64,000 nucleotides of DNA from the NCBI GenBank assembly GCA_918797485.1, contig CAKKNE010000004.1, positions 2,666,001 through 2,730,000 on the forward strand. Reading direction: 5' to 3'. The notes under the pieces are model-generated. The model had not been told where the DNA came from and made no database searches. It saw only the letters and a program-made list of their open reading frames with translations. Made by a program: the position numbers and the translations under genes. Source of the stretch: Pelagomonas calceolata (taxonomy: Eukaryota). The stretch's first letter is position 1. Every line of letters begins with the position of its first letter. Positions 5,306 to 61,936 of this stretch are shown here, in pieces.

Positions 5306-6028
5306 TCACGGCGGGATCGGTTTCCGCTCCTCGCCGTAGAGCATCGAGTTCATCGAGAGCATCTTCGCCAGGTACTTTTGATGGTACTCTTCCGCTTGCC
5401 AGAAGGGCATCGCGGGTTCAATAGCTGTGTGGCGGCACCACTTCTTGCCGTCCGCAATCAGCTGGGCCTGCATCGTCTCCGCCGCTTCTCGCTGGGCCTC
5501 ATCATGATAAAAGACAGCGGACCGGTACTGGCGCATCGCGATGCCCGGCGTGTGCTCCCTCCAGAACTTCTCGAGGATGTCCTCGTACGTCAGTTCCTCG
5601 TTGAATTCGATCAGGATCGCCTCGGTATGGTCGCCGATGCGCTTATAGGTCGGCTCGAACCTGTGCATAAATCAACTAGTGAGTCGGGTGCGGCCATGTT
5701 GGCTGAAACGAGCGGTAATAGACCACGACGCCACGCCATCGAGCTGGCGTCGCGTCGATGGCGTGCATGGTGGAGACGCGTCGCGACAATTTGATTTGTT
5801 CACTGGCTCGAACAGTTCCCCACCGGTGTACCCCACAAGGGTCTTCTCGACGCCGGGCGTCGTGTCGAAGGACCCCTGCGGGTGCCAGAATCAGCCCATC
5901 GCTAGAGTGGCGACGCGCGGCGGCTGGTTGAGCGTGATCTTCGGCGTGTACAGCGGGCACGGCGTGACCCGTGAGTCCTGTAGAGCGGCCGCGCCGGAGG
6001 CCGCTAGTGCTAAGACTACAGCACGCAT
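5306..6028 (-). CDS. msrA: Selenocysteine-containing peptide methionine sulfoxide reductase A; exons 6028-5814, 5660-5306; Sec TGA at 5893-5891
   Basis: Reads MRAVVLALAASGAAAL...ATLAMG[TGA]FWHPQ...VGYTGG...EPTY...DHTEAI...QYRSAVF...AEEYHQKYL. TGA replaces the Cys of GCFW. Spliced length 570 nt, in frame; signal-peptide-like N-terminus. Confidence 0.92.
5661..5805. mobile_element. Introner element forming the msrA intron (5661-5813, GT-AG)
   Basis: Perfect 8-bp TSD GCTCGAAC at 5653-5660 and 5806-5813; imperfect TIRs CTGTGCATAAATCAA / TTGATTTGTTCACTG; internal ACGCCATCGA...TCGATGGCGT. Confidence 0.92.
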
Positions 6029-6322
6029 CGCTGCGTCTCACTTGCTCAGCCCACGGGTGCTACACGAGAGACTCCGTTGCAGTTATTCACCGATGCCTTC
6101 AGCCCGCGTCGATGGCGTGCAGAGCTCGTGACGCACACCGGAGAGCATAATCCTAGCGTACCGACACACACTAGCATTACAGGCACAACGCACAGCTCCA
6201 AATCGATCGATTAGACACTACACGATGGGCCACAACAACTCATTCGTGCATATCTGACAGCAGGGCACAACGGTAGCAGCGGTTCAGGCTCTGACAGCGC
6301 GCACCAACACTGCCTAGCAGAG

Positions 6323-7201
6323 ATGGCCCAAAGACCAACAAATCGTCCGGCGTGGATGTCCGAGGAAGCCTACGCCGAGGCAATCAAGCGAGTAGAGAGG
6401 CCGCCAGCGCCGGAGCCCGAGACCACGGAGACCGCGCTGCCGCCCGTCAGCACGGCGGCCGCGACGCGCGTCGTTTACATCGAGCGATTTGTGGATCCGC
6501 CGAACCCGTACTTGCCGGCGGAGGAGCGCAATGAATTAGATGTGGCCTATCGGGAACTGGGCGCGCGCTTCGGCTTCGCGCGGCGCGTGGCCGTGTCGCC
6601 GGCGGGCGACGTCGTCTGCGCGTTCGCGGAGCTGGAGGCGGCGGAGCGCTGCGTGCGGGCGCTCCACGGCCGCCGCGTGAAGGGCCGGCAGCTCTGTGCC
6701 GACTTTCTGCGCGAAGATGAGGAAGACGGCCCGCTCCTCGACGATCATGGAGTGCCGACGGCGCCGCCGCGGAAGCCGACGACGGTGCGCGTCGGCAATG
6801 CGTGGGGCGTGGGCGCGGGAGATGAGTTCGTGCGCCGCGCGGCGGACGCGATCGCCGTCGAGTGCTCGCGCTTCGGGCCCCTGCGGCGCGCCGTGGGCGA
6901 GGCCGAGGCCTGCGAGGTCTTGGTGCAATTCTCGTCTTCACTGAGTGCCGGCGAGTGCGCGCGGGAGCTGAGCGGGCTATCCTTCGACGGGCGTCCCTTG
7001 ACCTGCGTCCTCGACGACGACGACGTCGCTGCGGCGCCCGAGCCAACGGAGCTCAAATTCTGGCAACACGATCCCAATCGAAAGCCAAAGTCCCACCGCG
7101 ACCGGCCGCCGACGCCCGTCCCCGAGCGGTCCCGGTCCCGGTCCCGGTCGCGGTCGCCGCCGCAGGGACTCGTCGCTGACTACTCGTCGGACGACGACTG
7201 A
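6323..7201 (+). CDS. Two-RRM (U2AF/UHM-like) RNA-binding protein with RS tail
   Basis: Two degenerate RRMs (ALHGRRVKGRQL; LSGLSFDGRPL); RSRSRSRSRSP tail. Confidence 0.7.
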   Translation: MAQRPTNRPAWMSEEAYAEAIKRVERPPAPEPETTETALPPVSTAAATRVVYIERFVDPPNPYLPAEERNELDVAYRELGARFGFARRVAVSPAGDVVCAFAELEAAERCVRALHGRRVKGRQLCADFLREDEEDGPLLDDHGVPTAPPRKPTTVRVGNAWGVGAGDEFVRRAADAIAVECSRFGPLRRAVGEAEACEVLVQFSSSLSAGECARELSGLSFDGRPLTCVLDDDDVAAAPEPTELKFWQHDPNRKPKSHRDRPPTPVPERSRSRSRSRSPPQGLVADYSSDDD

Positions 7202-7228
7202 CTAAGTGTTTGTTTGTGTTTTTACCAG

Positions 7229-10671: not shown

Positions 10672-10680
10672 CCTTACTCA

Positions 10681-16613: not shown

Positions 16614-16699
16614 CCACCACTTCCAATTCATCGACCCCATCTTTTCGTTCGCACCCCGTAGTTCCGGCAAGTTTCAATCTTAATTGATTTTACTACACA

Positions 16700-17153
16700 C
16701 TAGTCTAAGTCGACCGTCGTCCACTCGCGCACGTGCGAGCCGGCGACGACGTGCGGGCCGTACGGGTCTTTCGCTTTGAACTCGTCCGCGGCCTCGCGGT
16801 CGGTGAAAACAAACATGGCGCCGTCGACGGGATCAGTGAACGCACCCGCGGACAGGACGCGGCCCTCGGCCGCAAACTCCTTGATGAGACCGAGGTGGCC
16901 CGCTCTGTACGGGTCGCGCTTCTCGAGCACGTCCCTGTGCGGATATCAACCAGTGACTCCCACGCCATCGAGCAGACGCAATCACGGGGCCAACATCGCG
17001 TCGATGGCGTGTAGCGCGTTGCAATTTCTACGCAGCGCGAGACGGAGTGTAGTCGTAGAATAACACGAAGCGCGAGACCATCTTCGGCGGCGACGAGAGA
17101 AGACGTCTCGCGGCGACAGCGCGTCGCGCACTTCGCACCAGCACTGGCACCAT
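16700..17153 (-). CDS. YCII-related domain protein with a mitochondrial-type presequence; exons 17153-17044, 16934-16700
   Basis: Spliced FVLFYDYTPDVLEKRDPYRAGHL...AGAFTDPVDGAMFVF...DPY...REWT; 345 nt in frame. Confidence 0.85.
16935..17035. mobile_element. Decayed introner forming intron 16935-17043
   Basis: TIR remnants CTGTGCGGATATCAA / GCAATTTCTACGCAG; donor lies exactly 8 nt outside the TIR; TSD no longer matches. Confidence 0.75.
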
Positions 17154-19931: not shown

Positions 19932-19967
19932 CTTATATTGTAGTTGGTTATTGCGCGTCGCGTCGCG

Positions 19968-38035: not shown

Positions 38036-41000
38036 TTATGATGCGCCCCCGAAGTGCACATTTGACGCATCGGAAGTAGAGAGCAGCGGCACGCCGAGGG
38101 CCTGGAGCTTCTTAAGAGCCGTCGCCTCCGCCTTCCGCGCGGCGGACTTGTCCTTTACAGTAACCACTAAGGCGTCGCCGATATCATACGTCCGCCCGTG
38201 CTTCTTCAGGCGGTCGCGCACGGAGTCCGTCTCGCCCACATATAAACCGTCGGACGTAGAAAAGGCGTAGACGCACGACGTACCTATCAATCGGGGCGGC
38301 GGCGCTTTATCTCTAGGTAAGGTTTCCGGTACCAACCCTTGGTCCGAGAGGGCGTCAAAGGCCGAAGCAAGCAGGTCCACCTCATCCTGTTGGACAGAGG
38401 GCACGTCCCTTCCAAGCGTAAGCGCCGCCCGCTCCACGATCCTGGAAGGGACCTCCGCAGCGACAGCAGCATCTAACGCGAGAGAGTCGACACAAACACC
38501 CTCGTCACAACTGTGGTTGCCTCCCATCCTCCACTTCTTCACATCATCTCTAGAATCCTCCTCCAGGATCTCATGTAGATGCGTCGCGAAGACGCCCCGC
38601 ATCTTTCTATCCGTAAGTTCATCTAGAACAGCACCGCCGATGGCGGCACCTTCGGTAGAAGACGTCCCGCGGCCCAATTCATCGACCAACACCAATGAAT
38701 CAGGTGAACATTCCCGGAAGAGCTGCGCCACGGCGTCCATTTCTCGCTCGAAAGAACTTTTCCCGTAGAGGGGCGCGTCGCCCGTGGCGTGTCGCAGTAG
38801 AATGCCGTCCCAGTGCGGCACGGTACCTTCACTGATCGGTGCACATAGACCCGACGCTCCCAATAAAGCTGCGGCGGCCGTACTTCGTAACAGTGTACTT
38901 TTGCCGGACGCGTTCGGTCCTGTTAAAAAGGCCATTTGTCCACTTGCTAGGGAGACGTCGTTCGGGACTGACGAACCACGGTCGAGCCAGAAGGGCGTCA
39001 GGCCCTTTAGCGTCAGAGTCTTTCCCGAAGCAGGTAAAGACCATCCTTTCTCTCGAGAAGCTTCGGCGTGGTCCAGAGCCGCTGCGCCACATTCACACAC
39101 GGATATACAGGCCACGGCCGTGTCCAAATGTTGAGAGTAGACGGTCTCGCTCAATTCACGTAGAGACGCCCTTACCACAAGTGACGCGTCGCTACAAGCA
39201 GCGCAGTACGCGTCATTGGCGTCGAGGGCTCGCTGCGACGTCCTTCGTCGTGGCAGCGGCTGGCGGAACCGATCTCTAGGTGCTACTTCATCACCAGAAG
39301 GCGCCCCGCGCAGGCAGACGACGTTGTTCGCCACCTGTGTGGAAATCAAAATTTTACGGCGCGTTCCTCCACGCCATCGACGCGACGCCTGCTCGATGGC
39401 GTGACGATGCGTTCCTCACCGCTAGGCCGAGACGCACATGTTGATTTCCACACAGTTCGCCACATCATACAAGACGTCGTCGCCGTCCGGGAATTCCGCG
39501 ACGGCATTCTCGAGTTCCGTCAGACAAGCATCGACCCGAGCGTAGGCGTCCCTAACCTCAGGACGGTGGTCCCGCAGTACCACGCCTCTAAAGACCTCGT
39601 TTCTCTCAATGAACGCGGCAGGGAGTCTATCAGAAGATGAAACGGCGTCGTCCTGGTCGATACTTACCACTGATGAAATGACACCTTCCAAACGCGCCGC
39701 AGCATCTACGAGATCGTCTCCCTCCAACGAGAACACCCCGCCCGCCTCGCTCGCGTCAAGTAACTCGAGCAAAGGTCTAGAAATGGACGAAGGCGCCTCA
39801 CTAATCGCCTGGCGGCATGCGACAGATGCCCTGTGGGCGTCGCGAAACAGTAACGCATTCGCCTCCTTCTCCGCTAACAAACGTACTAGTTTCTGCCTCG
39901 GGAGATTCGGCGCATCATCCAAAGGTAAAGGCGGGCACGCCTCATCTAATAATGCTGATAGTAGCGACCGCATCGCTGTTGCTGGTTGCTCGGACGGTGG
40001 CGCTAACAACCATCTCCGTAGAAATCGCTGCGAGGCCGCGCGAGCACCTCTAGATGGTAGTAACCTAGGAACTAATGCAGGCACGAGCTCGTCGTCAGCC
40101 AAGCCGACGTCCCTAGCTGTGGAAGCAAACAAAGGCCGCTGTGTTCTTGGAGTTGATACCCGTACTTCCTCTGCAAATGACAAAGGGTCCTCGACGCACA
40201 AGACGGATCGAGCCACCTCCTCGGCGAATAAACGTACGCGACCTTCCGTAGTACCGGGGTCCTCCAATCGCACGGCCCGGTCGTCATCGAGTCGCTCCCG
40301 GTCATCTACTAAAGCTAGAGCGTTCCGCTTCGCCGCGTTCCTCCTATTAATCTCTTGAGCTTTCGACCCACTAGCTTTACAATCGAAATAGAAGGCCGGC
40401 GCCGCGGCACCTCCACGAGCACTTACGGCGGCTCGACACCCGTCGGGCGTCAATGAATCGTAGACGCAAGCAGTCCTCGCGTCGACATCCAAACATATCA
40501 CCGACGCACCTGATTCACCAACAGCAGAAGCGACGAACTGCGGCCCCTCGCAGCGCCACTCGAGATCATTTCTACTGAGAGCCTGGTTCTGCACATATGT
40601 GGAAGCGCCCGGTGCTACCACTTGTGCTAAGTACCTTTCTTTCTTGCGACGAGGATCAGCACAGAACCGTTCTTCATAGACCGCCACGGTTAAGCCGTTT
40701 CGGGTCAAGCCATCGAGCGTCTGCTGCAAATTCCGCCAGGGACACCCCGCTCTTACTTTGTCGCCCATCGGATTTAAACCGCAGTGCTCCACGAGCAACG
40801 TAGCGTCGACGCCCCACGCTTCGTAGAACTCGCCGACGCGCACGAGTAAAACTTTCGTGGGGTGCTCGAGTTTCCACTCTAAGGTCTCCAGTAGGAGTGT
40901 TTTCCTTCCATTTGCAGGGGGTTTATCTAGACTGTCGTGGGGGAAGCCGAGGGCGTTCGTTGCTAAGCGGTCGCTCAGGGCCTGGGCCGCGGGCCTTCGG

Positions 41001-41621: not shown

Positions 41622-42663
41622 CTAGAGCGAGTCGTACCGCCGCAGCGGCTCCACGGGCAGCGGCTTGGACGACTCGGCGACCTGCGCGTCGAGCTTCTCC
41701 ACGAGCTTCACCAGCTGGTCGTGGCCACCCAATGCCGCAATAGCGGACGCGATGTCGCCCTTGATCGCCGCGAGGGCCGCGCGCGTCTTCTCGAAACTGC
41801 CGACGGACTCCATGAACTCCACGGCGTGCTTTTTCACATCAATATTCTCGGTCTTCTGCTTCAGGATGTTTAGTAACCGGGTATCGTCCGGTCTCGCCCT
41901 TATAGCGTGCAGGATCGGATAACTAAACTTTCCTTCAGTCAAATCCTCGCAGTAGCTCTTGCTGAGCGCGTACTCGTCGCTCTTGAGGTTCACGAGGTCG
42001 TCCCTTATTTGGAAGTAGAGCGCTAATTGATCGACTAGTTCGCGGAACTCGCTCTTGTCTCGTGCCGAGAACGCGGCCATGAGGCCGACGGCCAGCCGAA
42101 ACAACCCGCCGGTCTTGTCGAGCACCATGCTGTAGTACTCTTTTTCTGAAGGGACCTTCTGCGTGTCGCGCCACACGATGTCCTGGCCCTGGCCCCTATG
42201 TAAATTGAGCAGCTCTTCCACAAAGACCGACAGCGCCTCCGGCGAGCCTAATCTATGACATTCTTCCAAGGCTACAAAGTACGCGTAGTTCGCCGCGTTC
42301 AGCGTGTAGGGCACGCCGAAGATGGCGTGGGCCACGGGCTTGCCCCGTCTCAGTTGCGACCCGTCCTCGATGTCGTCGACGAGCAAAGAGGCGTTGTGCA
42401 GGCGCGAGATGATGGACTTGATTTGCGTCACTTTCTCGGGCGGGATTTTGAGCCACACGTTGAACGCGTCGATCAGGGCGCCTCGGACGTCCTTGCCGGG
42501 CGTCTCGCCTGCGTGAGTCGGGTGGTCGCGTCGCGTCGGTGGCGTGCCATGATCCAGCGGATGCGCGGCGCGACAATTGATTCATGCACTGCGTCTCGCT
42601 GATGTAGGCGAAGGGCTCCAGGATCGATGCGTCGACGGCGTGGCTGACCGGCGGCGAGGTCAT
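41622..42663 (-). CDS. GGPS1: Geranylgeranyl diphosphate synthase (type III); exons 42663-42600, 42508-41622
   Basis: Spliced EPFAYISETPGKDVR; LHNASLLVDDIEDGSQLRRG; LHRGQG; KTGGLF; FQIRDD; EDLTEGKFS. Confidence 0.92.
42509..42591. mobile_element. Internally deleted introner forming a GC-AG intron (42509-42599)
   Basis: Perfect TSD CGTCTCGC at 42501-42508 and 42592-42599; one TIR retained (TTGATTCATGCACTG), the other shortened. Confidence 0.88.
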
Positions 42664-44563: not shown

Positions 44564-44680
44564 GCGCGGCGCCCGGCTAAGAGACCCTTGTGCCCCCGAA
44601 TTTGACTCACTTGCCCGGGCCGTGTGGGATTGCTGTGGAGACGGTGTTGTTACGGTGCTAGGATGCTAGGACAATTTGGG

Positions 44681-45054
44681 CTAGGTTGGCATTAACCGGT
44701 TAATAACCGGTAATTTACCCATTATCACTCCTCGGAGGGGATTTGGGGTAAATAACCCGGTAAATTACCCGACGGGTTTTCGACTAAACCCGTTTAGTGC
44801 GATTAGCGAAAGACCCCTCCGGATGGGCGCAAGCAGCCCGTTGAGCTTTTGGATACGTACAGGTGCGCCAAGGCAAGTACCAAGTCATGTGGTCCGGCGC
44901 GGCCCAGGCCCGCGCCAGTGGCCCGCGAGGCCCCCTCCCCCTGCCCCTCTATAAGATCCCGGGGTAAATAACCCGTACTCACCGGTAATTACCCGGGTAA
45001 TTACCCCCGGCCGGCGCCTGGGGTAAATAACCCCTCAGGTAAATGCCAACCTAG
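44681..45054. mobile_element. Intergenic MITE (374 bp) with 17-bp TIRs and 8-bp TSD
   Basis: CTAGGTTGGCATTAACC...GGTAAATGCCAACCTAG (1 mismatch); TSD AATTTGGG at 44673-44680 and 45055-45062; internal GGGGTAAATAACCC at 44745, 44961 and 45020. Confidence 0.92.
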
Positions 45055-45418
45055 AATTTGGGGGGGAGACATCGCGCGTCGCCGATTCATCGGCGGCGGG
45101 CGCGTGGAGCACTGGAGGGAGACTCGTCGTAGAAACCGCGAAAACCCGTCCAAGGCCCTAGGGCTAGGTCCAGTTTGAGGGGGTACCGGCGCGCTTCCAC
45201 GCTTCGAGCTAGCGGCGTGTAGACACTAGCACAAGCCATCGCATTGTGACTCGAGCCTCTACAGCCCGTATTGCCCCAAAATAATCCGTATTCTGAATCT
45301 ACGGATTCGCTGCAGTCTCGGCTCAACGTGGAAGTCGATAGGAGGACGTAAAACCGACGTCTAGAGGACTCATCTCAGGAGGCCACTCACACGGCGACGC
45401 TGCTCCACACGCGCAGCG

Positions 45419-48775: not shown

Positions 48776-48823
48776 CGACGTCCCTGGATCCTGTGATAAG
48801 ACCCCTCAAAATAATTAAGACTA

Positions 48824-51800
48824 CTAGGCGAGGATCGCGTCCACGTCGTGCGTCGCCCAGGCCGGCACCTCGCCCGCCTCGCCGTGGTTCTTGCCAGGCG
48901 CGTCGCCGTTCGTCCGCAAACAGACGCGCACGCGTCGGTGATGTAATTCGAGGATGTAGTAGTAGAGCTCCATGTCCCGCTTGTTGATGTCGTACAATAG
49001 CTCCAAATTGTGCGGCGACAGGGGCGCGGACTTCGATTTGCCGCCCTTGACCCTATCTTTTGGTACCGATTGATGCAAAGCGGGGAAATCCGTCTCGTCG
49101 GGATCGCGACCTGTGCGTAAATCAACCAGTGAGTTAGGTTATCGGTCGCGGGGACGACGTCGCGTCGATGGCGTAGGGTTCCCCGAAATGGATTTCCACA
49201 CAGACGGCGACTGGGATCCCCTTCAAAAAAGTCCGGCAGCAACAACCGAAACAACTGCGCCGTGTTTTCTAGGTCAGTCAAAATGCCAACATGAGCGTAG
49301 CGCTCCCGGACATTACGCTTCGCTATCTGCAGGGCCAGCTCCGGCCTGGAAGGGTCCCTACATTCCGGCCCGTGGCCGCAGAACCATCTCACCGTATAGT
49401 CGTGGCACTCGTCCGCGAGGAGCCGCATGGACTCGTTGTAGGATAACCTTTGAAAAATATCCCACTCCGTATCAGTAGCTCCTTCTTTTCGTTTTGGCAC
49501 GGGAAAGTCCTGGTACCTATGCTTCTCCGTCCTCGGATCCCAATTCCTAAAATCGCATCTACCGCCATCTAAACAAGCATCAAAATCCACCGCCGGGATT
49601 CGTTTCTTGTAGAACGCCTCGTAGTTGTACCTTGATATACATCTATCAATAGGATCCCGGATCAAGTTCACCAAGGCAACACCATCCGCATGTGTGGTCT
49701 CCACTCCTTCCGGGTAGTAGACGTGGCGCTGCGTCACGAACCGGGATTGCTTCCCATAATTTGCGAGGCGCGCCAAATATTTTTTCAGATCAGGAGCGTC
49801 GAGCCAGCGATGTTTGGCAACGTGGGGCGTCCACCACGTCACATCTGTAGAAGGTAGGTGGAACTTGTGCTTCGCCTGTGTGGTAATCAAAATTTCACGC
49901 CTGCTCGATGGCGTGGCGGCGTCGGTTCATCACCGCTCGACGGGGCCAGCACGGCCGCGTCATTGCCGAGAAATGGCGTAGTGCACCCGACACACTGGTT
50001 GATTTCCACACAGCGCAGAACCGTCTCGTTCAATTGGCCGCTCATCCACGACATGATCGACGCCGAACCAGATTTCGGGATGCGGTTATACAAGACGCCG
50101 CGGGGATGCTTCGGTTCACACAAAGGGTGCCACTTCGGCGCGTGGGACGACGGGTAGGCCCTCCTCAGCCTCTTCCTCTCGGCACTCGTCAAGACCTTGT
50201 GGACGCGCTTCGGCGGCTTCGGGGGTTTGGTATCGGGCGCCTTTTGTTGGGCGAGGTGGGCTCTTACTTTAGCCTTGTAGCGCTCCAGGACCTGCGACGT
50301 CGACGCGTCGCGGCGACGGCGTGGGGGGGCATCCACGAGACCTGATACGCCATCGACGCGACGCGCCGTCGAAGGCAGTGGACGCCGGACGCGTACCGAT
50401 AGCTCCGTCGAAGACAATGGCGGCGGCGTCGGCGGGTGCTCCTCCTCGACGACGACGGGCTTCACGTCGCACTTTCGCGTTTTCACGCGCGTCCGAGGGA
50501 TGATGCGATTCGAAGGGCACGTCGACCACGCCTCCAGGAAGTTGCAGAGGGCCTCCCACGTCTTTTTTGGAGGCGCCGTGTCCAGATCTTGTAGAACGAG
50601 CAATCGATGCGCCTCGTTTCTAGATGCGAAGAAGGCCACTATATCTGTATTTCGCTGTTCATACGCCTGAATCCACGCCTCCCGATCCAGCGGACCGAGG
50701 CCGTTCGCTCTCTCGTAGGAAGTACGCTGCTTGACTGTAGAACAAGAGAGCTCCCGCTCGACATCGTCCCACCACGCCGATGAATCTCGCACGGTCAGCA
50801 CGAAGCGCGCCCGCGGGTAACGCATAGCCAACTCCTCATACAACGACCCGGCGTTCCAGGGCGCGTCGTAGAACGTCCTGTAGTCATGAGCTATTTCTAG
50901 AGCTTTGGTACTGTCTAAGCTTCTAGCATAATCATCAAACGCAGTCAAGCGGGCTTTGACGTCGCACCTCGGCTCCAGTTTCAACGCATCCAGCATCATC
51001 GCTATGCGCTCACCGCCCGCTTTGGAAGCCGACAGTGCAAAAGTTTTGAAGGACAGGTCGTGTTTTTGGGGTTTGTGGACTAACGCACAGCCCGCGTCAC
51101 AAGACACGACATCGGAAATCTTCGAGCGGCAGAACAAATCCGAAGCGAGGTCCGCATGGTTTAAGGATACACTTTCAACGGCTCTCCTGAGAGCGATGGT
51201 CAACGACGGCTGGTCCCGCGATTCGCCAGTACGCTCGTACAACCTCATGAACGCGTCCACATAGAACCCCAGGAATTGCTGAGTACGAGGCGACGTACTA
51301 TCGAGAACGATCAGCGCGGAGTTGTGTTCTAGTTTGAGATGGTCTCGATGTGATTCCTGGCCGTCGAATTTATTGGTCAGTGCGACATCCACGCCGTTGC
51401 CCACTAAGAGTAATCTCTCTAGGAACGAAGCAGAACAAGGTCTGCTATCAAAGTCCATGAAGATCGTTGTACTGAAAGGACTTGAGGCCATCGCGTGGAC
51501 CTTGACCAACTTGGCTCTTGTTTTCAGCGGTAGCCTTTTGGTTGTAACGAGGGACCAGTCCTCGTACAGTAAAATGCGATCAAAAAAATTCGATAGGGTC
51601 TCCTTTTCTGTACTCGTAAGTTCATTGACCAGGACGCGTTCCGTGAAGAGTGCGAAGCCGTGCTTTCTCACTGACGCGTGGGCGCCTCGCGCGTCGGCGA
51701 TCCCTAATTGTTTGAGGTAGTCCACCGTCGGTAAAACCTCCCTTCTCACAAATTCCGGCGAGCCGGCCGCCGCGTACATGACACCAACGCCCTCTCTATG

Positions 51801-51953
51801 TATGGCGCGCTGCTGGATATGGCTTTTGACAAGTTTCTTGTAGACGTGTTCTCGGTCCGCATCCCAGGTGTCCGCGTCTTTGACGTCGTTGGCACTGATG
51901 CGCTCCGCGGCGACGGCGTACGCTAGCAGCAGCAATTTTTGCATGGCTGCCAT
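48824..51953 (-). CDS. Secretory-pathway fusion of a glycosyltransferase-like domain and two sulfotransferase domains; exons 51953-50397, 50291-50022, 49875-49212, 49110-48824
   Basis: Signal peptide; KVHAMASSPFSTTIFMDFD (DxD)...RDQPSL; YDAPW...YPRARFVLTVRD; YNRIPKSGSAS...NLIRDPIDRCISRYNY...NKRDMELY. Spliced total 2778 nt, in frame. Confidence 0.75.
49111..49203. mobile_element. Introner element forming intron 49111-49211
   Basis: TIRs CTGTGCGTAAATCAA / TGGATTTCCACACAG; TSD ATCGCGAC / ACGGCGAC (6/8). Confidence 0.9.
49876..50013. mobile_element. Introner element forming intron 49876-50021
   Basis: TIRs CTGTGTGGTAATCAA / TTGATTTCCACACAG; internally similar to the 24287 copy; donor 8 nt outside the TIR; flanks match 3/8. 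Confidence 0.88.
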
Positions 51954-52267
51954 ATGCCTGCTTTGCGCAGCCTTGGAGCTGAAAGCAGCGTTACGGGCAA
52001 TGCATTGCGGTCAGGTTCGGCCAACCAAGGCGTTCAGATGGCAGCGGTATGGAGCGATTGGCCCGAGGACGCGCCGCATAAATTTTCAGTCCTAGAGTGT
52101 CTGTCTCGCTAAGCGCGACTGCAGAGCAAAATCGGCGGTGCGAGCCTCAACGGCCCGCAGGCGTGCTGCCGACCCAATCACGATTCGCATCGATCACTGA
52201 TTCGACGCTACAGCCGAACAAGCCACGCGAGAAGGGGTCCTGTGTGCGCTGCACGCGGCACTTCACA

Positions 52268-53812
52268 ATGCCGGTCTTCTGGCGCATAGCACTGCTCTAC
52301 GCCACAACCGCGGCCCTGCGACCCCCACTAACAAGTCGCCGCGCATCAATAAAACGCTACGAATCCCTCTTCGACGTCGCCGTCGACGCGACGCCCGCCG
52401 CGCAGCTCGCCGTGTGGCTTGAAGGCTGGCAATGCGCGAGCGACCCGCAGTTCCCCGTCGAAACAACCATCCAAGACGGCGCATTGCGGCTGCGGTACGC
52501 GGCGATGCCGTCGCACGGCGTCGATGTCATTGCGAGGCCGCCCGGCGCCGACGCGCCTACGACGAGATTGGTGGTCGAGCGCATCGGCGGCCCGGCGCCG
52601 TCGACGATTAACAGTTTACTGCGGAGCGCCGAAGATCGCATACTCGACGGTCTACGCCATGATCTGGAGCGGGACTTTGGTGCGTCATTGTTAAGGCCGC
52701 CCCCGGCACAACCACAACCACGCCAAAACCAGAAGATGCCCGACACGCTATATGATGGTACTTATGGAGACGCCTTCGAGCAGGAGGTCATCGACCTCGT
52801 CGAACCCAGTACTGAAGAGGACGAGAGCATCAGGAGTATGTTTGCTGAGGGCGAAAAGCTGGCCAGGAGGGCCGCCGGGTTGCCAGAAGACGACGCGTTG
52901 GACGTCGTCGAAGCGAATGGCGAGGCCCAGTTCGAGGTGCGGCTCGATCCTGGGATGAAGGGTGGCATCGACCTATTTGCGCCACCACCACAGATAGCCG
53001 GTGTGAGTGCACCGGTGCTAGACTTTGCAGATGTAGACGTATCACCTGAAGTATCAGCGCGTTTTGGCGTGCTGTTGCGGGAACTCCGGTTATCAGAAGA
53101 CCCGCAGTTGATTTTAGACGCCTACCGAGACGTGTTGCTAGACGACGCGTTTCCACTCTTAGCGAGGAAGGCCGTCACGGACGACGTGGAGAACTCCGAA
53201 GCTGTTGAAATATTAAATAAGGAGGCCCTCAAGCTAGCTACACAACTCGCGGAGATCGCGGCGGCCGCCGAAAAACAACATCTTGAAACCATAAGATTAT
53301 TGTGCGAAGCTGCCCGAGATCGGGGCGACGCTGGACTAAGGCAGGCCGCCCAGACGCACCGCGCGCGACTCGATGATGATTTTGTCGCATATATAAAACA
53401 CTCTGTGGCTGTGGAGGCGTCATCGCTAAGACAGCGCGGTGTGAGTGATCCAAGTAGGGAGCCGTCGGAGTGGCTCGCGGTGCTCGATGCCGTGCGCAAG
53501 GCCACGATTGCCGAACGGGGCAAGGACGTCCGGGCCGACGTCGAGATCGTGGAGTCTATATTAGCGTTGAATAATGCGGACGCGCGGAAGGAGTTATTGC
53601 GCTTGCACGTCGAGAGGTTGTCGCGGCAGCCGGGGCGCATGCGGGCCTTTTCGTCGGTGGTGGCGAACATCTGCGACAACTTGCTGGACGAAGACGCGGA
53701 GACGAGGCCGCCTCCAGAATTAGTGGAGAAGCTCGGCGATTTGCGTTCTGGTTTGATGGCTCTTGCTCCCGCCGTGGCGGATAGCGCCGGGGGTTGGATG
53801 GCGGAGGGGTAA
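52268..53812 (+). CDS. Hypothetical, probably plastid-targeted helical protein
   Basis: Leader MPVFWRIALLYATTAALRPP; long uninterrupted ORF. Confidence 0.6.
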   Translation: MPVFWRIALLYATTAALRPPLTSRRASIKRYESLFDVAVDATPAAQLAVWLEGWQCASDPQFPVETTIQDGALRLRYAAMPSHGVDVIARPPGADAPTTRLVVERIGGPAPSTINSLLRSAEDRILDGLRHDLERDFGASLLRPPPAQPQPRQNQKMPDTLYDGTYGDAFEQEVIDLVEPSTEEDESIRSMFAEGEKLARRAAGLPEDDALDVVEANGEAQFEVRLDPGMKGGIDLFAPPPQIAGVSAPVLDFADVDVSPEVSARFGVLLRELRLSEDPQLILDAYRDVLLDDAFPLLARKAVTDDVENSEAVEILNKEALKLATQLAEIAAAAEKQHLETIRLLCEAARDRGDAGLRQAAQTHRARLDDDFVAYIKHSVAVEASSLRQRGVSDPSREPSEWLAVLDAVRKATIAERGKDVRADVEIVESILALNNADARKELLRLHVERLSRQPGRMRAFSSVVANICDNLLDEDAETRPPPELVEKLGDLRSGLMALAPAVADSAGGWMAEG

Positions 53813-54168
53813 TATTGTGTTTATTATTTCGTGTGTTCGTCGGCGCGGCGGCGACGGCGTGGGTGTTCCGCACAGCGAAACCCGCCGCTCGGAGAGCATG
53901 GGTGCGACGCCTCCACGAATGTGTGGAGCACACTTCTGCGAGTCCGCTCGGGCTAGTGTGTTGCTCTCACGCTAGACGAAGGGCACTCTGCTTTTGGAGG
54001 CGACATCTCAACAGCGAGGCATTGGCGTCACCGCAGCGCTCGCGCAGCACATCAAATTGCTCTTGGCAAGACCTCCACCGCGCACGAGGCAAGGAAATCC
54101 ATCACTCGCCGCGTACGCGACGAGACAAGTTGCCTCACAAAAACAGCTAATCACACCACACAACCACG

Positions 54169-56658
54169 ATGGCCGACAAGTGGCGCGTCCCGCAGCGTCG
54201 TTTCATCGATCCAGATCGCCTGCGCAAGAGAACATACGCGCCCACACGCGCGCGCGCCGACAAAACCCCGAGAGTGGACTTCGCGCCGCACCGCAAAACG
54301 CCGTCACCACGACGCAGGTTCCCCCAGCTCAAGAAGACGCGCGCCGCGGCACCGCGCCTCCGCCTCCTCGCCTTCCCGAACTCCGGGAGCAGCGAGAACG
54401 TCTACACCGGCGTGGACAAGCTCAACGGCCGCGAGGACAACGTCCTGATGACGTGGGCGCGCAGGACCGGCGTCGAGGTCTGGGCCGCCCAGCCGCCGGG
54501 CCGCGACGCGCGCCTCAAGGAAACTGCATTAACTTCATGTGCAGAAGTAGCCAAAGGCGCTTACGACGCCGCTTCTACATTAGGCTTTTTTGAGGACGAC
54601 GCGCCCTGGGCCCTGTTCGCCCACTCCATGGGCTGCTGGAGTTCGTACGAGTTCGCGTTACTTGCTCGCTCAAACGGTAAAAGACCGCCGGCCGTGTTCG
54701 TCGCGAGCGGCTTTCCCTCGCCCTCGCTACCTCTCTCTGAAAGACCCTGGACGCCGTCGCGCGACTTGAACGATGCCGACTTCCGAGAGGAATGTAGGAA
54801 GTGGCGCATCAACGACGTCGTCTTCGGGAGCCAGATGTGGGCGACGTACGAGCCGCTGCTGCGGGCCGACTTCCGCTGCTTCGACGAGTACCCTGTTGGG
54901 GGTGATGCGGCTCCTCTATCATTCCCGGTCAAGGGCGTGTACGGTACGCAGGACGACCGCTGCACCTCTAGCAAACTCGAGACTTGGAGTAGTGTTGCTC
55001 CCGATTTTGAGTTACTTGGTAGTGTCGAGGGCCACCACTTGTTTGTGTACGACGAATCCGCAAGGAAGCAGTGGTTCGAGATGGTGGTGCAAGCGCTCGA
55101 CGGCGCCGTGTCTCCCATTGCCAGTGGACCGCCGCGCGCGCGCTACGAATGTACGGCGCCGAAGGGTGCGGCTGTCCGAGAAGGCTGCGACCTCAAAAGC
55201 CCTCTAGCGTCGTGGGATGTGGAAGAGGGTGGGATGATCGACGTCGAGGAGGAGAAGGAAAATAGTAAGGGTACCTTACGCTTACGCGTCGTCGCGTACA
55301 CGTCGCCGGGCTGCTCCCGCGAGGTTTGTGAAGGATGGGTCTCGAAGAAGCTGTTCGAGTTCCGCGGCGCGGCGCCCGGTGCTATTGCGCCTTCTGTACA
55401 GACTTCCAAAGTCCGTAGGGTGTCGCCGCCGCCGCCACCTATTCATACTGGGACGAAGGGCACGAAGAAGACGGTCACGGGCAAGCACGGCGCTTTGTTA
55501 AGGAAGGGCTGCGAGCTTTCGTCGGTGGAGACGGGTATCTCATTAGATCAGGGCGACCTGTGCTACGTCGCTGGAGAGGACGTCAATGAACAAAATATAG
55601 TAAGGGCCCACGTGGTTTTGAGATCGGCCAAAGGAGGTCCCTGGGAGGCGGTGGACGGCTGGTGCACGGCGAAGTTCTTGAGCGGTGCTGATGGAGAAGA
55701 GCCTCTGCCGGAGGTCGGTTCGAAACCTATCATCTCTATAAAATTCCCGCCGTGCACCGATACGGGACGCGTCTTGTTGTTCCCGGGCCAAGGAGCGCAA
55801 AAAGTAGGCATGCTGGCGCCGTATGAAGACGTCGCGGGCGTGCGCGAGATGTTTTCTGATGCGTCTGAAGTTTTTGGAAGAGATCTACTAGAACTGATCC
55901 AGAAGGGCCCGGAGACCGACCTAAACGACACGCGCTTCTCGCAGGTCTGCGTGTTCCTGACGAGCATGGCTGCTGTGGCCAAACTGCACCAGGACGACCC
56001 TACTGCTCTACAGAAAGTAACACATACGGCCGGTTTCTCATTAGGCGAGTACTCGGCGCTCACGTTCGCGGGCGTCATGGACATTGCTACTGCTGTTAGA
56101 TTGTTGAAGGTGCGGTCGGACGCCATGGGCGCCGCCTGTGATTTATCACCGTCCGGGATGATGACGGTGGTAGGGTACGAAGATGCTGATTTGCAGGCGT
56201 TACTACCGGATAAAGTGAGTGTGGCGAACCAGCTCTTCCCGAAGGGTAGAGTTGTTGCGGGTCCTCGGGATGCCCTCAAAGCGTTGGAAGCTGCAGTCAA
56301 GAAGGAGAAGCGGCCGGGCACGAAGACGATCATGCAGCCCGTGTCCGGGGCCTTCCACTCGCCGTTCATGGCATCTGCTGCCGACGCTTTACGTGAAGCG
56401 CTGGATGGTGTTTCATTGAACGCTCCGTCGCGTACCGTCTACTCGAACGTGACCGCGCGACCGCACGCCTCGGATCCACTCCAAATCAAAGACGCCCTCT
56501 GCAAGCAGCTCACGGCCGGCGTCTTGTGGGAGGATACCATAAAAGATATGATCAAGGCGGATATTGACGCGTTGTACGAGCCGGCGCCCGGGAAGCAGCT
56601 CACGTCGATGATGCGGCGCATCTCGGCCGCGCACCACCCGAAGATGAAGAACGTGTGA
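54169..56658 (+). CDS. Fusion of a type II thioesterase, two SH3-like repeats and a malonyl-CoA:ACP transacylase (FabD-like); probable in-frame intron ~54183-54317
   Basis: RLLAFPNSGS, QPPGR, FAHSMG, LRADF, GHHLF; VREGCDLKS...GWVS / LRKGCELSS...GWCT; LFPGQGAQ, AGFSLGEY, VSGAFHS. Confidence 0.85.
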   Translation: MADKWRVPQRRFIDPDRLRKRTYAPTRARADKTPRVDFAPHRKTPSPRRRFPQLKKTRAAAPRLRLLAFPNSGSSENVYTGVDKLNGREDNVLMTWARRTGVEVWAAQPPGRDARLKETALTSCAEVAKGAYDAASTLGFFEDDAPWALFAHSMGCWSSYEFALLARSNGKRPPAVFVASGFPSPSLPLSERPWTPSRDLNDADFREECRKWRINDVVFGSQMWATYEPLLRADFRCFDEYPVGGDAAPLSFPVKGVYGTQDDRCTSSKLETWSSVAPDFELLGSVEGHHLFVYDESARKQWFEMVVQALDGAVSPIASGPPRARYECTAPKGAAVREGCDLKSPLASWDVEEGGMIDVEEEKENSKGTLRLRVVAYTSPGCSREVCEGWVSKKLFEFRGAAPGAIAPSVQTSKVRRVSPPPPPIHTGTKGTKKTVTGKHGALLRKGCELSSVETGISLDQGDLCYVAGEDVNEQNIVRAHVVLRSAKGGPWEAVDGWCTAKFLSGADGEEPLPEVGSKPIISIKFPPCTDTGRVLLFPGQGAQKVGMLAPYEDVAGVREMFSDASEVFGRDLLELIQKGPETDLNDTRFSQVCVFLTSMAAVAKLHQDDPTALQKVTHTAGFSLGEYSALTFAGVMDIATAVRLLKVRSDAMGAACDLSPSGMMTVVGYEDADLQALLPDKVSVANQLFPKGRVVAGPRDALKALEAAVKKEKRPGTKTIMQPVSGAFHSPFMASAADALREALDGVSLNAPSRTVYSNVTARPHASDPLQIKDALCKQLTAGVLWEDTIKDMIKADIDALYEPAPGKQLTSMMRRISAAHHPKMKNV

Positions 56659-56937
56659 TTTTTTGAAGTCCGTCTGCGCCCTGTCCCTCCCCTTGTCCCC
56701 AGTCCCCACGTGTAAGGTTGTCGCGACGGCACTCGTCTTTTTTGCACCTCGTCCTCTTGCGAGGCATCATTGGTGTGGATGATGTATAGATATCCCTCCG
56801 CGTACAGCATGCGCGGGCCGCGGCTAAAAAAGAAATCGGGCAGCCTCTCGATCGGTGCGCTGCAAGCTTTTGTCCTCCTTTAGAAACGGCAGGGCACCCA
56901 CCAGTTGCTGCCCACCGCAGCGAACGCCTCGCACCAA

Positions 56938-57393
56938 ATGGATCCCAACGCCCAGCTGCTTCCACAACCGGGCTTTGCCCAGCCCTACACAGTGCATGTG
57001 GCAGGTCCCAATGATCCCCATGCCCAGCCCCAAATGGGCTTGGCCAACCTCGCCGCCTTGGCCGCGGCCGCGGTCGATCTTGCGCCGGAGCCTGCTGCCG
57101 ATCCTGCGCAGGCCAGGCCCGCCGCCTTCTTCGAGCTCCAGAAACTCCAGAAAGAGATCGCGGCCGTGTATACAACACCCGGCTACGGCAAGAACACCCG
57201 GATTGACGACGTGAGATCCATTATAGAGAAATACGGGTTTACAAATCGTGGTAAATCTTGGAAACGAGACGGGATAAGACTCTATCCACCTGAACATTTC
57301 CCCCCATTGCGGGGAAGTGCCATGCGCTCTTTTAATGGAATCAAGACCTACCTCGATTCCGCGCTCGCCGCAGCCTCGCCGAGCCACCCCTAG
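56938..57393 (+). CDS. Hypothetical protein
   Basis: ATG-started ~151-aa ORF between the FabD fusion and SRP54; no family recognised. Confidence 0.4.
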   Translation: MDPNAQLLPQPGFAQPYTVHVAGPNDPHAQPQMGLANLAALAAAAVDLAPEPAADPAQARPAAFFELQKLQKEIAAVYTTPGYGKNTRIDDVRSIIEKYGFTNRGKSWKRDGIRLYPPEHFPPLRGSAMRSFNGIKTYLDSALAAASPSHP

Positions 57394-57571
57394 TTTCAAC
57401 ACGCACGCAACGCGGAGGGTCGGCCGCGTTGTGAAGTGGCAAGAGCTCCGACGTTCGCCGGAACTGATGTGAACACGGCATGCTCTCGGCACGGCCTCTA
57501 GGCGCGGCCCCTTCCCCGCCCTCGCTAATGTTGTCATGTTAATCACTACCAATAGTATCTATGAGTATTAC

Positions 57572-59189
57572 TCACTTCCCCCCCTTCGCCTCGAGCTCGC
57601 TCATCTGCTTCATCATGTTCATGAGGTTTTGCGCCCCGCCCATCTGCTGCAACATGCGCGGGTCCATGGTCTTGTGGAGCTGCTGGAGCACTTGATTGGG
57701 GTTGCGCTGCATCTGCTTGACCTGTGCGTAAATCAACCAGTGAGTCGGGTGCACGACGCGACCGTGCTGACCGAATCGAGCGGTGAGAGAGCCGGCGTCG
57801 CGTCGATGGCGTGGAGGGCATGGAGACGCGTCGCGACGATTTGATTGATGCACCGTGCTTGACCATCTGTTCATCCCCTCCTTTCATCAGGCCCGACTTG
57901 CCCATTTTGGTTACTACTCCCTCGAACTGCTTGTGGCACCGCAGCAACATCTGCACTTCCATGGGGTGCGTCCCGGAACCGCGCGCGACGCGGTCGACGC
58001 GAGAAGGCGCCCGATTGAGATCAACTCGACCATCCAACTCGTCGTCCGTCATGCTATCCATCATGTACATGAACCGCTTCAACCGATTGCCGCCCTCGTC
58101 GCCTTCCCCGCCCATCTGCGGGATGCCGGGGATCATGGCCATGACTTTTGAGAGGGGGCCGAGCTTCATGACGTTCTCGAACTGCTCGTACATGTCGCGC
58201 AGCGTGAACTCGCCCTTGCTGAACTTCTCCATCATCTCGTCGTTTTTATCGTCGCCGATCGTATCTTTTATTTGTTTGACTAAGGTACTCATGTCGCCCA
58301 TGCCCAACAATCGCGACACGAAACTGCGCGCGACGAAGGGCTCGAAATCATCAAAATGTTCTCCCGAGCCTAGGAACAGTATCGGAGCGCCCGTCGCCGC
58401 GACCGCGGACAGGGCACCGCCGCCCTTCGCGTGCCCATCCAATTTCGTGACCACAACTGAGCCAATATCTATCGCCTCATGAAACGACGTCGCCTGTTCA
58501 TGCACGGCCTGGCCCTGCGTCGCATCCAGCACAAAGACCACGTTATCCGGCTCGATCGCGACTCTAATTTCTTGCATCTCCTCGAACAAGGCCGCCTCCT
58601 GGCGGTGTCGTCCCGACGTGTCGACGATGATGACCTCGTACTTCTCCTTGCGGAACTGCGCCACGCCTTCCGCCGCTATTGCTACAGGGTCGGCTTCGGT
58701 GTAAGACCCGTAGAAGGGACATCTCAACTTAGTAGCGTTCTGCTTCAATTGATCATAAGCTCCAGCACGAAAGGTATCCGCGCAGACCATGCAGCACTTG
58801 AAGCCTTTGCGCTGGTAATAGTTCGCAAATTTCGCGATTGTCGTCGTTTTTCCAGCACCCTGCAGTCCCACGAACATGATGACGTTCGGCTTGCCCTTCT
58901 TGACCTCATGTGGTGTTACTCCTGGATCTACTATGTTAACTAATTCGTCTACTACGGCTCTTTGTATCAGTTTTCTCCTATTTGCCCCAGCAACTTCCTC
59001 CTCGAGCGCAGCGCGCGTCTTGATGGCCTTCCTCAGTTGGCCGACGACTCTCACATTCACGTCGGCCTCCAACAAAGCGGCAGCGATGTCCTTTAACATC
59101 TTATCCAGCACTTCCTCGGAGATGACCGTCACGGACTGCATCTTCTGGAGCGCCGCCGTGAGCTTGCCGCCGAGCTCCTGGAGGACCAT
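57572..59189 (-). CDS. SRP54: Signal recognition particle 54-kDa subunit; exons 59189-57864, 57721-57572
   Basis: MVLQELG, GLQGAGKTT, DTFRAGA, DTSGRH, TKLDGHAKGGGALS; M domain; Met/Gln-rich tail. Confidence 0.96.
57722..57855. mobile_element. Introner element forming the SRP54 intron (57722-57863, GT-AG)
   Basis: Perfect TSD TGCTTGAC at 57714-57721 and 57856-57863; TIRs CTGTGCGTAAATCAA / TTGATTGATGCACCG; close relative of the msrA copy. Confidence 0.93.
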
Positions 59190-59599
59190 GGTTGCGGTAG
59201 CGCGGCGGCGGCGTTATATCGCTGCGGTTTCGTTTCGCCAGGCGCTTTTGGCTTGCTTGGTTGCGGTGCTGCTGTCTGGCCCGCGGGGCAATCAGGGATC
59301 GCTGTCGTGGCCGCAACGTTGACTCGCCAGCACCTGGGGGCTATACAGTGGCCCTTGCTTGCTGTGCGAGACGTGTGCGGCGAGCTACAGCCGAGAGCCG
59401 AGGCGCAAGCAGCGGCTAGCATCCATGTGCGCTAGCTAAGCAGGCAAGCGCGCGGTACTGGCGCGTACGAGTGCCCGTCAGCCGCGCAAATTAGCCCTTA
59501 ATACTATATTCGAGGCCGACGGCCAGCGCTGCAACGCAAGCGCAGCGCAGTCCGCAGCACAGGCTCCACAAGCAAGCCTGCTTCCACAGCAGCCTCACC

Positions 59600-61936
59600 A
59601 TGTCCGACGTGCCGGGTGCCTTCGCCGCGATGGCGCTCCAGCAGCAACAACCACTGGACAACGCCGTCGACGCGTCATCAAGACCGGAAGATTTATCATG
59701 CCCGTGCTGCTTCCGCCCCGGAAAGCTCTGCGACTCCTTCTCGCCGGAAGAAGCGCCCATGAAAATTAGAGGATTACGCGTCCTGATGGCCTCGCACGGC
59801 CTCGACGCTTACATCGTACCGAGCGGCGACGCCCACTCCTCAGAATACGTCGCGCCCTGCGACGAGCGGCGGGCCTGGCTCACGGGCTTTACGGGATCTG
59901 CTGGTACTGCTATTGTATCAATGAAAGAGGCGGCGCTGTGGACCGACGGAAGGTACTTCAACCAAGCGTCCACACAACTAGAAGGCTCGCCCTTCACACT
60001 GATGCGGCAGCACGAGCCGGGTGTACTGGACATGCCTGAATGGTGTCTTCAACAGGGTTCGAAGATCGGCATTTGTGGCGGTCTGTGTACGCTGCAGTTC
60101 TCCCAAAACTTCCGGGAGAAGGGTTTGGAGCTGGTACCGATCGCTACGGATTTCGTGGACGTGATCTGGGGCAGTCGCAGACCGAAGGTGCCCCGTAACC
60201 CGTGTCTGGAGCAGCCTCTCGCATTGACTGGTGAATCTGTGAAGAGCAAGTTGGAGAGAGTCAAGAAGGAGCTCAATGGTTCTGCGTTAGTCTTAAATGC
60301 CCTAGATCAGATCTGCTGGCTCACGAATTTACGAGGGTGCGACGTGGAATGCAACCCGGTCTTCTTCGCGTACGCCGTCGTGACGGACGAGCTCACGTTG
60401 TATTTGAGGTGTTTGGATCGGGAGCTATGTGGTAACGGCCTGGAGCAGCACGAATCAGATGAACGTATTGCGGTCTTGAAAGCGACGCTACTAGAACATT
60501 TCAGGAGCGAAGGTCTAGCTGCCAATCTGTTGCCTTACTCATCTTTCGACGCAGCGGAATGTGCCCAGCGATGTAGCGGTAGGAAAGTAGCCCTCGAGAA
60601 GGCGACATCTACGCTAGCGATGGCCGCGGCCATTCCTGAAGAACGTAGAGTGTTGGTGGACTGCTCGCCCGTCGAAATCTTCAAGGCCGTGAAGAACGAC
60701 GTCGAGATCGCGGGATTACGGAAGGCTGGGAGACGGGACTGCGCCGCGCTCGTCGGGTTCTACGGCTGGCTCGAGACGCGGCTGGGCCGCGTGGGCGGCG
60801 GCGTGCAAATTTCGGGCGCCTTCCCGTGACTGCGTCTGCTCGACGGCGTGAAGGTCGAACCACTGGTTGATTTCCACGCAACGAGAGCGTGTGTCGGGTC
60901 GCGGCGATGGCGTAGGGGTGGCGCCACACGCCATCGACGCGACCGCACCCCCGCACGCCATCGACGCGACGCCTGCTCGATGGCGTCTGACTGGTCGATG
61001 TCCGCGCAGGTCGACGAGTGCCAAGCGTGCGACGAAATTATGAGAAGAAGGCGCATGATGGGCGGCCCCCTCTACAAAGGTGATAGTTTTGACACCATTA
61101 GTAGCGTCGGTGCGAACGCGTCGATCATCCACTACAAACCTACACCTAATGATTGTGCGACCATAACAAACAAGGACGTCTACCTCTGCGACACCGGTGG
61201 TCAGTATGGAGACGGTACCACAGATATCACGAGGACGAATCATTTTGGGAAACCGTCCGAGGATGAAAGGAGGTGCTACACGCGAGTACTCCAGGGCCAC
61301 ATAGGGATGGCTCGAGCTGTTTTCCCCGAGGGCACTCCCGGGGTCATGTTCGACGCTCTCGCTCGAGCACCGTTGTGGCGAGATGGATTAAACTATTTAC
61401 ATGGCACGGGCCACGGCATGGGGAGTTACCTGAACGTCCACGAGGGCCCGTTCGGCGTCGGCGGCGGGGCGGTAACGGCAGATAAGCAGTTCGCCTTTCA
61501 CGCCGCGAAGCTGAGGTATCTGAATGAAATAAGGAGGGGCCACTACGTCAGTGACGAGCCGGGCTTCTACCAAGATGGCTCATTTGGGTTCCGCATCGAG
61601 TCGGACCTGGTCGCCGTGGTGGCGGAGACGAAGTACGCGTACGGTACGAGAGCTTGGCTCAAGTTCGAGTACCTGACGCCCTTGCCCTTTTCTCGGTCGC
61701 TGACGGACCCTTCTCTGTTACTCGAGGACGAAATACAGTGGATCGACGCCTTCCATTCTCAATGTTGGGCGACGGTGGCGCCGCTGTTGACTTCCAGTAA
61801 TTTGGATGATGCGCAGGACGCGGCTCGCGCGCGCCAGTGGCTCTGGCGCGAGACGCGGCCGCTGTCGGAGGAGGCGTGCCCGCCGGTGCCGCCCGCGATC
61901 GATCCCTCGAAGTGCCACAGCATCCTGGACTTCTAG
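59600..61936 (+). CDS. XPNPEP1: Xaa-Pro aminopeptidase (M24B); exons 59600-60790, 61010-61936
   Basis: AYIVPSGDAHSSEY, LWTDGRYF, SFDTIS, DTGGQYGDGTTDITRT, HGTGHG, NVHEGP, DEPGFY, GFRIE. Confidence 0.92.
60799..61009. mobile_element. Compound or decayed introner forming intron 60791-61009
   Basis: Two right-end copies (CACTGGTTGATTTCCACGCAA at 60861; GACTGGTCGATGTCCGCGCAG at the acceptor); TSD relics GTGGGCGG / GTCGACGA (5/8). Confidence 0.7.

What the first reader, a model, noticed from the sequence alone, without database searches (positions are those of the whole stretch)
5653..61017. Transposon family that creates scarless spliceosomal introns (introners): AG from the TIR, GY donor from the 8-bp TSD
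Seen: at least 9 introns in unrelated genes (msrA, YCII, SDR, MSH1, GGPPS, two in the sulfotransferase fusion, SRP54, aminopeptidase P) share TIRs of type CTGTGTGGAAATCAA...TTGATTTCCACACAG. Five have perfect 8-bp TSDs: GCTCGAAC, GGCCTTGC, TTCGCCAC, CGTCTCGC, TGCTTGAC. In each case the intron equals one TSD copy plus the element, so splicing restores the reading frame and conserved motifs (e.g. GASSGFGKA, ETPGKDVR). Established: this mechanism matches the introner elements described in the pelagophyte Aureococcus, and 8-bp TSDs are typical of hAT transposons. Inference: roughly half the introns in this window come from this one family, and the range of decay suggests prolonged activity.
Basis: partly seen in the sequence, partly recalled or inferred. 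Interest (0 to 1): 0.88.

Follow-up and report, generated by a model that had tools for sequence, protein, structure and literature searches.

The report
Transposon-made introns in a marine alga
Nine introns here are copies of one short DNA element with inverted ends; five were shown by RNA reads to be spliced out cleanly, and they likely arose by transposon insertion, a route to new introns already described in related pelagophyte algae.

Summary
Nine introns derive from one ~203-nt element with ~15-nt terminal inverted repeats (TIRs). Five have perfect 8-bp target-site duplications (TSDs). RNA reads and contigs place five junctions as predicted; the other four rest on reading frame and Pfam. 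In 94 ocean-metagenome copies, 40 have perfect 8-bp TSDs and 92 have GT/GC exactly 8 nt outside a TIR (background 32%). Both orientations are used (30:31), the GY lies on the coding strand (42 of 45), and frame is kept (34 of 35). GY on both sides equals chance (13 of 74), which favours survival of spliceable insertions over targeting. Unspliced ORFs of wild relatives show filled and empty sites, so these are not ancestral introns. The host is a pelagophyte, likely Pelagomonas. This is the Aureococcus-type introner mechanism (Huff 2016, seen second-hand), and 956 TIR-bearing ~210-nt introners are already reported in P. calceolata. hAT membership is untested: no transposase was found. One oddity remains: two window introns and a few wild copies have the donor in 8-nt register, but the 8-mer is not a copy of the target.

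The parts
5661..5813 (-). Introner intron in msrA (153 nt): element 5661-5805 plus intronic TSD copy 5806-5813 (GT donor); exonic copy 5653-5660; L end is the acceptor
   Evidence: 8/8 TSD; PMSR profile 9-33 before and 37-147 after the junction; no RNA laid
16935..17043 (-). Decayed introner intron in a YCII gene (109 nt, predicted): GT lies 8 nt before the decayed R-end TIR, but the 8-mer matches the next exon at 1/8
   Evidence: sequence; spliced frame; YCII hit on exon 2; no RNA laid
24287..24457 (-). Introner intron in a short-chain dehydrogenase (171 nt): element 24287-24449, GC donor, opposite orientation (R end is the acceptor)
   Evidence: 8/8 TSD; removal restores TGASSGFG; adh_short from profile position 14 on exon 2; no RNA laid
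39335..39463 (-). Introner intron in a MutS/MSH1-type gene (129 nt, in frame but with stops): element 39335-39455, GT donor, R end is the acceptor
   Evidence: 8/8 TSD; 577 + 432 open codons on the two sides; MutS_I, MutS_V, weak GIY-YIG; junction not among the joints shown
42509..42599 (-). Introner intron in a polyprenyl (GGPP-type) synthase (91 nt), GC donor; most of the acceptor-side TIR is deleted, yet it is spliced
   Evidence: 8/8 TSD; junction in 4 of 4 RNA runs, 31 + 5 raw reads
49111..49211 (-). Introner intron ST1 in a sulfotransferase-domain gene (101 nt), GT donor, TSD 6/8
   Evidence: junction in 4 of 4 runs, 83 + 51 reads; wild ORFs read into the same element or lack it
49876..50021 (-). 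Introner intron ST2 in the same gene (146 nt), opposite orientation; GT exactly 8 nt before the TIR but 8-mer matches the next exon at 3/8
   Evidence: junction in 4 of 4 runs, 9 + 7 reads; colinear with Aureococcus-cluster proteins; filled and empty wild alleles
57722..57863 (-). Introner intron in SRP54 (142 nt) after Met442, GT donor
   Evidence: 8/8 TSD; junction in 4 of 4 runs, 87 + 75 reads; no gap at the junction against pelagophyte homologues
60791..61009 (+). Old, composite introner intron in aminopeptidase P (219 nt): GT, 8 nt, decayed R end, an inner L end at 60861-60881, decayed L end as acceptor; TSD 5/8
   Evidence: junction GT..AG in 4 of 4 runs; sequence

Best explanation
These introns are copies of one short TIR-bounded element, five shown by RNA to be spliced out without a scar, and they likely arose when a non-autonomous cut-and-paste DNA transposon (a MITE) inserted into exons. 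A transposase supplied from elsewhere (inferred; not found) makes an 8-nt staggered cut, so 8 nt of exon are duplicated. Because both ends start CTG, either orientation presents CAG at the downstream end, which serves as the 3' splice site (shown). If the duplicated 8-mer starts with GT or GC on the gene strand, its upstream copy is the 5' splice site (shown). Splicing removes one TSD copy plus the element, so the mRNA equals the pre-insertion sequence (shown). Insertions without a sense-strand GY would break the gene and are likely removed by selection, which explains why nearly every surviving copy has one (inferred from the one-sided, strand-coupled pattern). Afterwards the interior shrinks by deletion and the TSD and donor-side TIR decay, while the AG is kept.
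For: Window: five 8/8 TSDs and five RNA junctions in 4 of 4 runs from 3 samples. Wild copies: 40 of 94 perfect at 8 bp against 0.01 by random pairing, none at 9-12 bp, 74 of 94 at 6/8 or better. GY at offset 8 in 92 of 94, against 11-40 at offsets 2-13 otherwise. Orientation 30:31. GY on both sides 13 of 74 (17.6%) against 17.5% background. GY strand is the coding strand in 42 of 45, frame kept in 34 of 35, and 68 of 70 in a wider set where GY was required. Intron phases 32/9/27 fit GY availability in codons (p=0.28). The R end keeps its terminal bases in 30 of 30 when it is the acceptor and 24 of 31 when not (p=0.011). Wild SRP54 ORFs 99-100% identical read into an element near residue 300 that the window lacks (4 proteins). 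P0174 keeps both neighbouring introns but lacks ST2.
Against: No transposase or long element was found, so the mobilising enzyme is inferred. Two of nine window introns and 4 further wild copies (5 of 68 at 4/8 or less, one being ST2) lack a recognisable TSD. TSD match does not track substitution divergence (rho 0.09, p=0.37), only length (rho 0.40). Empty sites were read from translated ORFs, not from DNA, and could partly be intron loss or partly spliced RNA. The wild sample was picked by an exact 21-mer and is biased to well-preserved copies.
Confidence: 0.92

Rival explanations
1. The elements spread mainly as RNA, by reverse splicing of excised introns followed by reverse transcription, as proposed for fungal introner-like elements.
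For: A minority have a donor 8-mer in register that is not a target copy (ST2, YCII, L072). Most copies lie in coding-like sequence (40 of 45 scored above 5).
Against: Locus-specific 8-bp TSDs, TIRs, and use of both orientations at 30:31 are not expected from reverse splicing, which keeps orientation and carries its own donor.
Confidence: 0.03
2. These are old introns into which a MITE later inserted, so the element did not create them.
For: The 60791 intron is composite. Two neighbouring introns carry the same internal motif without TIRs (43476, 50292). Replacement of an older intron could explain the foreign 8-mers.
Against: The element fills the intron from nucleotide 9 to the final AG and one TSD copy lies in the exon. 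Sister-lineage ORFs run through the ST1, ST2 and SRP54-442 sites without a break while breaking elsewhere.
Confidence: 0.03
3. Same transposon origin, but the GY excess comes from the transposase's own target preference (for example a GT-N4-AC type site; recalled for the hAT element Hermes), not from selection.
For: GT is strongly favoured: 49 GT against 12 GC donors although GC is about twice as common.
Against: A palindromic preference predicts excess GY on both sides; observed 13 of 74 equals background. The GY follows the coding strand in 42 of 45, which a DNA target preference cannot see.
Confidence: 0.1

Closest known systems
Aureococcus anophagefferens introner elements (Huff, Zilberman and Roy 2016; not held; seen through 10.1101/2020.10.14.339549 passages, PMC10228655 passage, and PMC9860276 supplement rows)
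   Same: One splice site carried and the other taken from the TSD; introns made in either orientation; a family with TSD and TIR, mean length 200, mostly GT donors (family 4, 1744 copies).
   Different: Sequence homology to the Aureococcus family could not be tested. GC donors are 12 of 61 here against about 3% in that family. No orientation bias here (30:31).
Putative introner elements of Pelagomonas calceolata (10.1101/2021.10.25.465678 passages; PMC9481584 passage and Supplementary Note 3)
   Same: 956 elements, intron length peak near 210 nt, GT and GC donors, AG acceptor, conserved TIR. Here the modal element is 203 nt, plus 8 gives 211. Probably the same family.
   Different: The passages seen do not mention TSDs, orientation, subfamilies or polymorphism. 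The sequence logo (Fig. S3b) is a picture and could not be compared.
Polarella glacialis ILE classes 6, 8, 10 (10.1101/2020.10.14.339549 passages)
   Same: 8-nt TSD supplies the donor; either orientation works.
   Different: Dinoflagellate; donors G-H including GA; orientation bias reported.
hAT-superfamily MITEs (features recalled)
   Same: 8-bp TSD, short TIRs.
   Different: No transposase seen. The ends start CTG rather than the recalled CAG/TAG, although some donor-side ends here start CAG (5661, 42509). 8-bp TSDs also occur in P, Merlin and some Mutator elements (recalled).

Membership tests
Introner, Aureococcus type | Repeated sequence that fills introns of unrelated genes | tested here: met
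   9 loci in 8 genes; 94 wild copies with distinct flanks
Introner, Aureococcus type | Spliced at the predicted ends | tested here: met
   5 of 5 junctions inside the stretch; 4 of the 9 loci have no junction shown
Introner, Aureococcus type | TIRs plus locus-specific 8-bp TSD | tested here: met
   2 of 9 window loci lack a recognisable TSD
Introner, Aureococcus type | 3' site carried, 5' GY taken from the TSD, either orientation, no change in mRNA length | tested here: met
Introner, Aureococcus type | Absent from orthologous sites (recent gain) | tested here: met
   from unspliced wild ORFs only, not DNA
Introner, Aureococcus type | Insertion into nucleosome linkers | not testable with these tools
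   no chromatin data; the shared ~203-nt length of unrelated interiors is only compatible
Same family as the Aureococcus or the published P. calceolata elements | Sequence homology of TIR and interior | not testable with these tools
   no genome held; TIR strings not found in the supplement text searched; logo is a picture
hAT superfamily | 8-bp TSD and short TIRs | tested here: met
   not unique to hAT
hAT superfamily | Autonomous partner encoding a hAT transposase between the same TIRs | tested here: inconclusive
   no transposase family in 53 window stretches or 83 locus ORFs; only about 0.33 Mb seen

The most novel reading that the evidence does not exclude
Besides the TSD route there is a second, TSD-less route: a finished intron (donor 8-mer plus element) is copied or re-inserted whole at a new exon position, even one with no GY (YCII at 16935; pyrophosphatase in L072, 1/8 match though the element is 95% like the reference). 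ST2 is filled in some wild alleles and empty in others, so Pelagomonas populations would be a place to catch intron transposition or intron replacement in progress.
Probability: 0.2. Interest if true: 0.6.

Novelty: already known. Interest (0 to 1): 0.27.

Why it matters
It is a clean example of how a DNA transposon creates spliceosomal introns without harming the protein. The mechanism is published, so the value is in the detail: a defined 203-nt family, counts that separate selection from targeting, and wild filled/empty alleles in an abundant ocean alga. These could serve as population markers and as material for finding the unknown transposase. The TSD-less minority, if real, bears on the open question of whether whole introns can move.

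Tried and rejected
No whole genome is held, so there was no genome-wide count or transposase search. The viral scan for the 15-nt TIR gave 53 single matches; one had a loose second end 2 kb away and none the internal motif, so they were read as chance. The first read lay (90% likeness) was swamped by other copies and showed no family junction; its very high summed depth over element bins suggests many copies but is not a copy number. All-against-all BLAST of the wild loci gave only three long alignments, and no empty site was read from them. Rfam gave no match in the window. The 24287 intron folds into a TIR-closed hairpin (z = -4.2), but the 42509 intron has lost most of one TIR and is still spliced, so the hairpin is not needed. 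The idea that foreign 8-mers come from a nearby exon site: best matches 5, 5, 6, 7, 7 and 8 (YCII) against a null of 11% for 7 or more and 0.7% for 8; noticed after the fact on six cases, not established. A shift of the intron copy to G at +5 (7 against 1) is too small to claim. My first reading of two one-way subfamilies was dropped: it is one family in two orientations. Searches for prior reports; none listed a paper on TSDs or polymorphism of Pelagomonas introners, but subscription papers are not covered.
Full report
Observation. The five named introns are at the stated coordinates with perfect 8-bp direct repeats. An 8-mer repeat at such distances occurs about once in 10,000 positions here. 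BLAST and pattern scans gave nine loci (sequence). Eight are in minus-strand genes and one in a plus-strand gene. On the gene strand each reads GY, six more bases, the element, CAG. The element has two distinguishable ends, called L and R here. L is the acceptor in six loci and R in three (24287, 39335, 49876), so one family works both ways round.

Splicing. One search listed DNA and RNA runs of one organism. The first lay was swamped by other copies. The second, at 99% likeness over 41500-61300, showed junctions in 4 of 4 runs from 3 samples at 42509-42599, 49111-49211, 49876-50021, 57722-57863 and 60791-61009. Each skip length equals element plus 8. Three further introns were shown: 43476-43660, 50292-50396 and 54183-54317 (GC-AG). 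Eight joints were hidden. The loci at 5661, 16935, 24287 and 39335 rest on frame and Pfam matches.

Host. The spliced SRP54 is 86% identical to Aureococcus anophagefferens SRP54; its first exon is 79-80% identical to two other pelagophytes. There is no gap at the junction in the pelagophyte rows. With 62.5% GC and many matches in metagenome contigs, Pelagomonas is the likely genus. This is an inference.

Wild copies. An exact 21-nt L-end probe gave 121 loci, with about 2100 stretches estimated. The script read 120 loci with 122 anchors; 94 had both ends and flanks, and 28 were dropped. I looked at 19 of the 28: most ended at a degenerate TIR within about 200 nt or ran off the stored DNA, a few continued into unrelated sequence. 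Perfect repeats: 40 of 94 at 8 bp, none at 9-12 bp; 74 of 94 match at 6/8 or better. The commonest length is 203 nt. GT or GC lies exactly 8 nt outside one TIR in 92 of 94 (32% expected). It lies on both sides in 13 of 74, equal to chance. Orientation is 30:31 among the 61 with one GY. A codon model trained on window exons put the GY on the coding strand in 42 of the 45 with enough flank, and frame was kept in 34 of 35 with coding-like flanks. Intron phases follow GY availability. The R end is intact in 30 of 30 as acceptor and 24 of 31 otherwise (p=0.011). At least three dissimilar interiors (51-64% to the main type) share the TIRs and a length of 203-207 nt.

Gain, not inheritance. Unspliced ORFs from wild contigs read into introns and so mark them. 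Four SRP54 proteins 99-100% identical to the window's break at residue 302 into element-derived peptide; five break at 326 into another intron; the window has neither. Three read into the window's own insertion after residue 442, with a shorter interior. For the sulfotransferase gene, four proteins carry ST2. P0174 starts in the upstream intron, lacks ST2 and reads into ST1. P0171-P0173 also start in that intron and lack ST2, and two of them lack ST1. A sister lineage (about 80%) breaks near residue 370-390 but runs through all three sites. These are translations, not DNA, and some may come from partly spliced RNA.

Mechanism. Shown: carried AG, donor at the start of the upstream 8-mer, exact removal, both orientations. 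Inferred: a transposase in trans with an 8-nt stagger, and selection as the filter for GY. No transposase family was hit in 53 window stretches or in 83 ORFs from the loci (the 80 longest of 167 coding-like ORFs plus three chosen). hAT remains a resemblance.

Against the simple picture. ST2 (3/8) is RNA-proven and colinear with homologues, yet its 8-mer is not a target copy. YCII (1/8) and the L072 pyrophosphatase intron (1/8) are similar, and their exons have no GY at the site. Five of 68 frame-keeping copies match at 4/8 or less. Five changes in seven bases at 10% divergence has probability 2e-4, so plain decay fits poorly. Whole-intron copying, replacement of an older intron, or conversion from another copy are the candidates. 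None was tested. The three 8-mers all end in GCG, noticed after the fact.

What is known. Huff et al. 2016 was not held. [quoted passage not shown] Supplement rows of PMC9860276 list an Aureococcus family with TSD and TIR, length 200, another with TIR and no TSD, length 199, and small Pelagomonas MAG families with TSD/TIR undetermined. That file was cut when stored, and its table of mobilising elements was not seen. Passages of its preprint were read. The P. calceolata genome paper reports 956 putative introners with GT/GC donors, AG acceptors, TIRs and a peak near 210 nt (passages; Supplementary Note 3; the logo and one scanned file were not readable). Passages searched in PMC12130899 had no whole-word mention of Pelagomonas, Aureococcus or hAT.

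Verdict. Real, well supported, and of a known kind, very probably already counted in this genus. Interest 0.27. The TSD-less minority and the wild polymorphism are the parts worth following.

Noticed in passing
window 44682-45053: A second, unrelated 372-nt intergenic element with its own inverted ends that start and finish with TA; very high summed DNA contig depth, so likely a high-copy MITE of another superfamily.
   Followed up: partly
window 43476-43660 (+) and 50292-50396 (-): RNA-proven introns without TIRs that carry the element's internal inverted-repeat motif; the motif has 18 hits at 2 mismatches or fewer against 0.07 by chance, several outside clear introns (19961, 23072, 28010, 30081, 30759, 31376, 62542). 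Possibly remnants of older waves.
   Followed up: partly
window 54183-54317 (+): GC-AG intron unrelated to the family, close to the start of a thioesterase/acyltransferase gene.
   Followed up: partly
L062, L065, L136; L061, L164; L055: Subfamilies with dissimilar interiors but the same TIRs and a length of 201-207 nt, which suggests a length constraint, perhaps one nucleosome unit.
   Followed up: partly
window 17071-17078 and 17036-17043: The YCII intron's first 8 nt recur exactly 35 nt upstream in exon 1; about 0.7% by chance for one case.
   Followed up: partly
L119: A copy that appears to have a 7-bp rather than 8-bp TSD, still with GT at its start on one strand.
   Followed up: no
window 48824-52010 (-): A 925-residue protein with two sulfotransferase-like regions, conserved in the Aureococcus cluster at about 53%.
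   Followed up: partly
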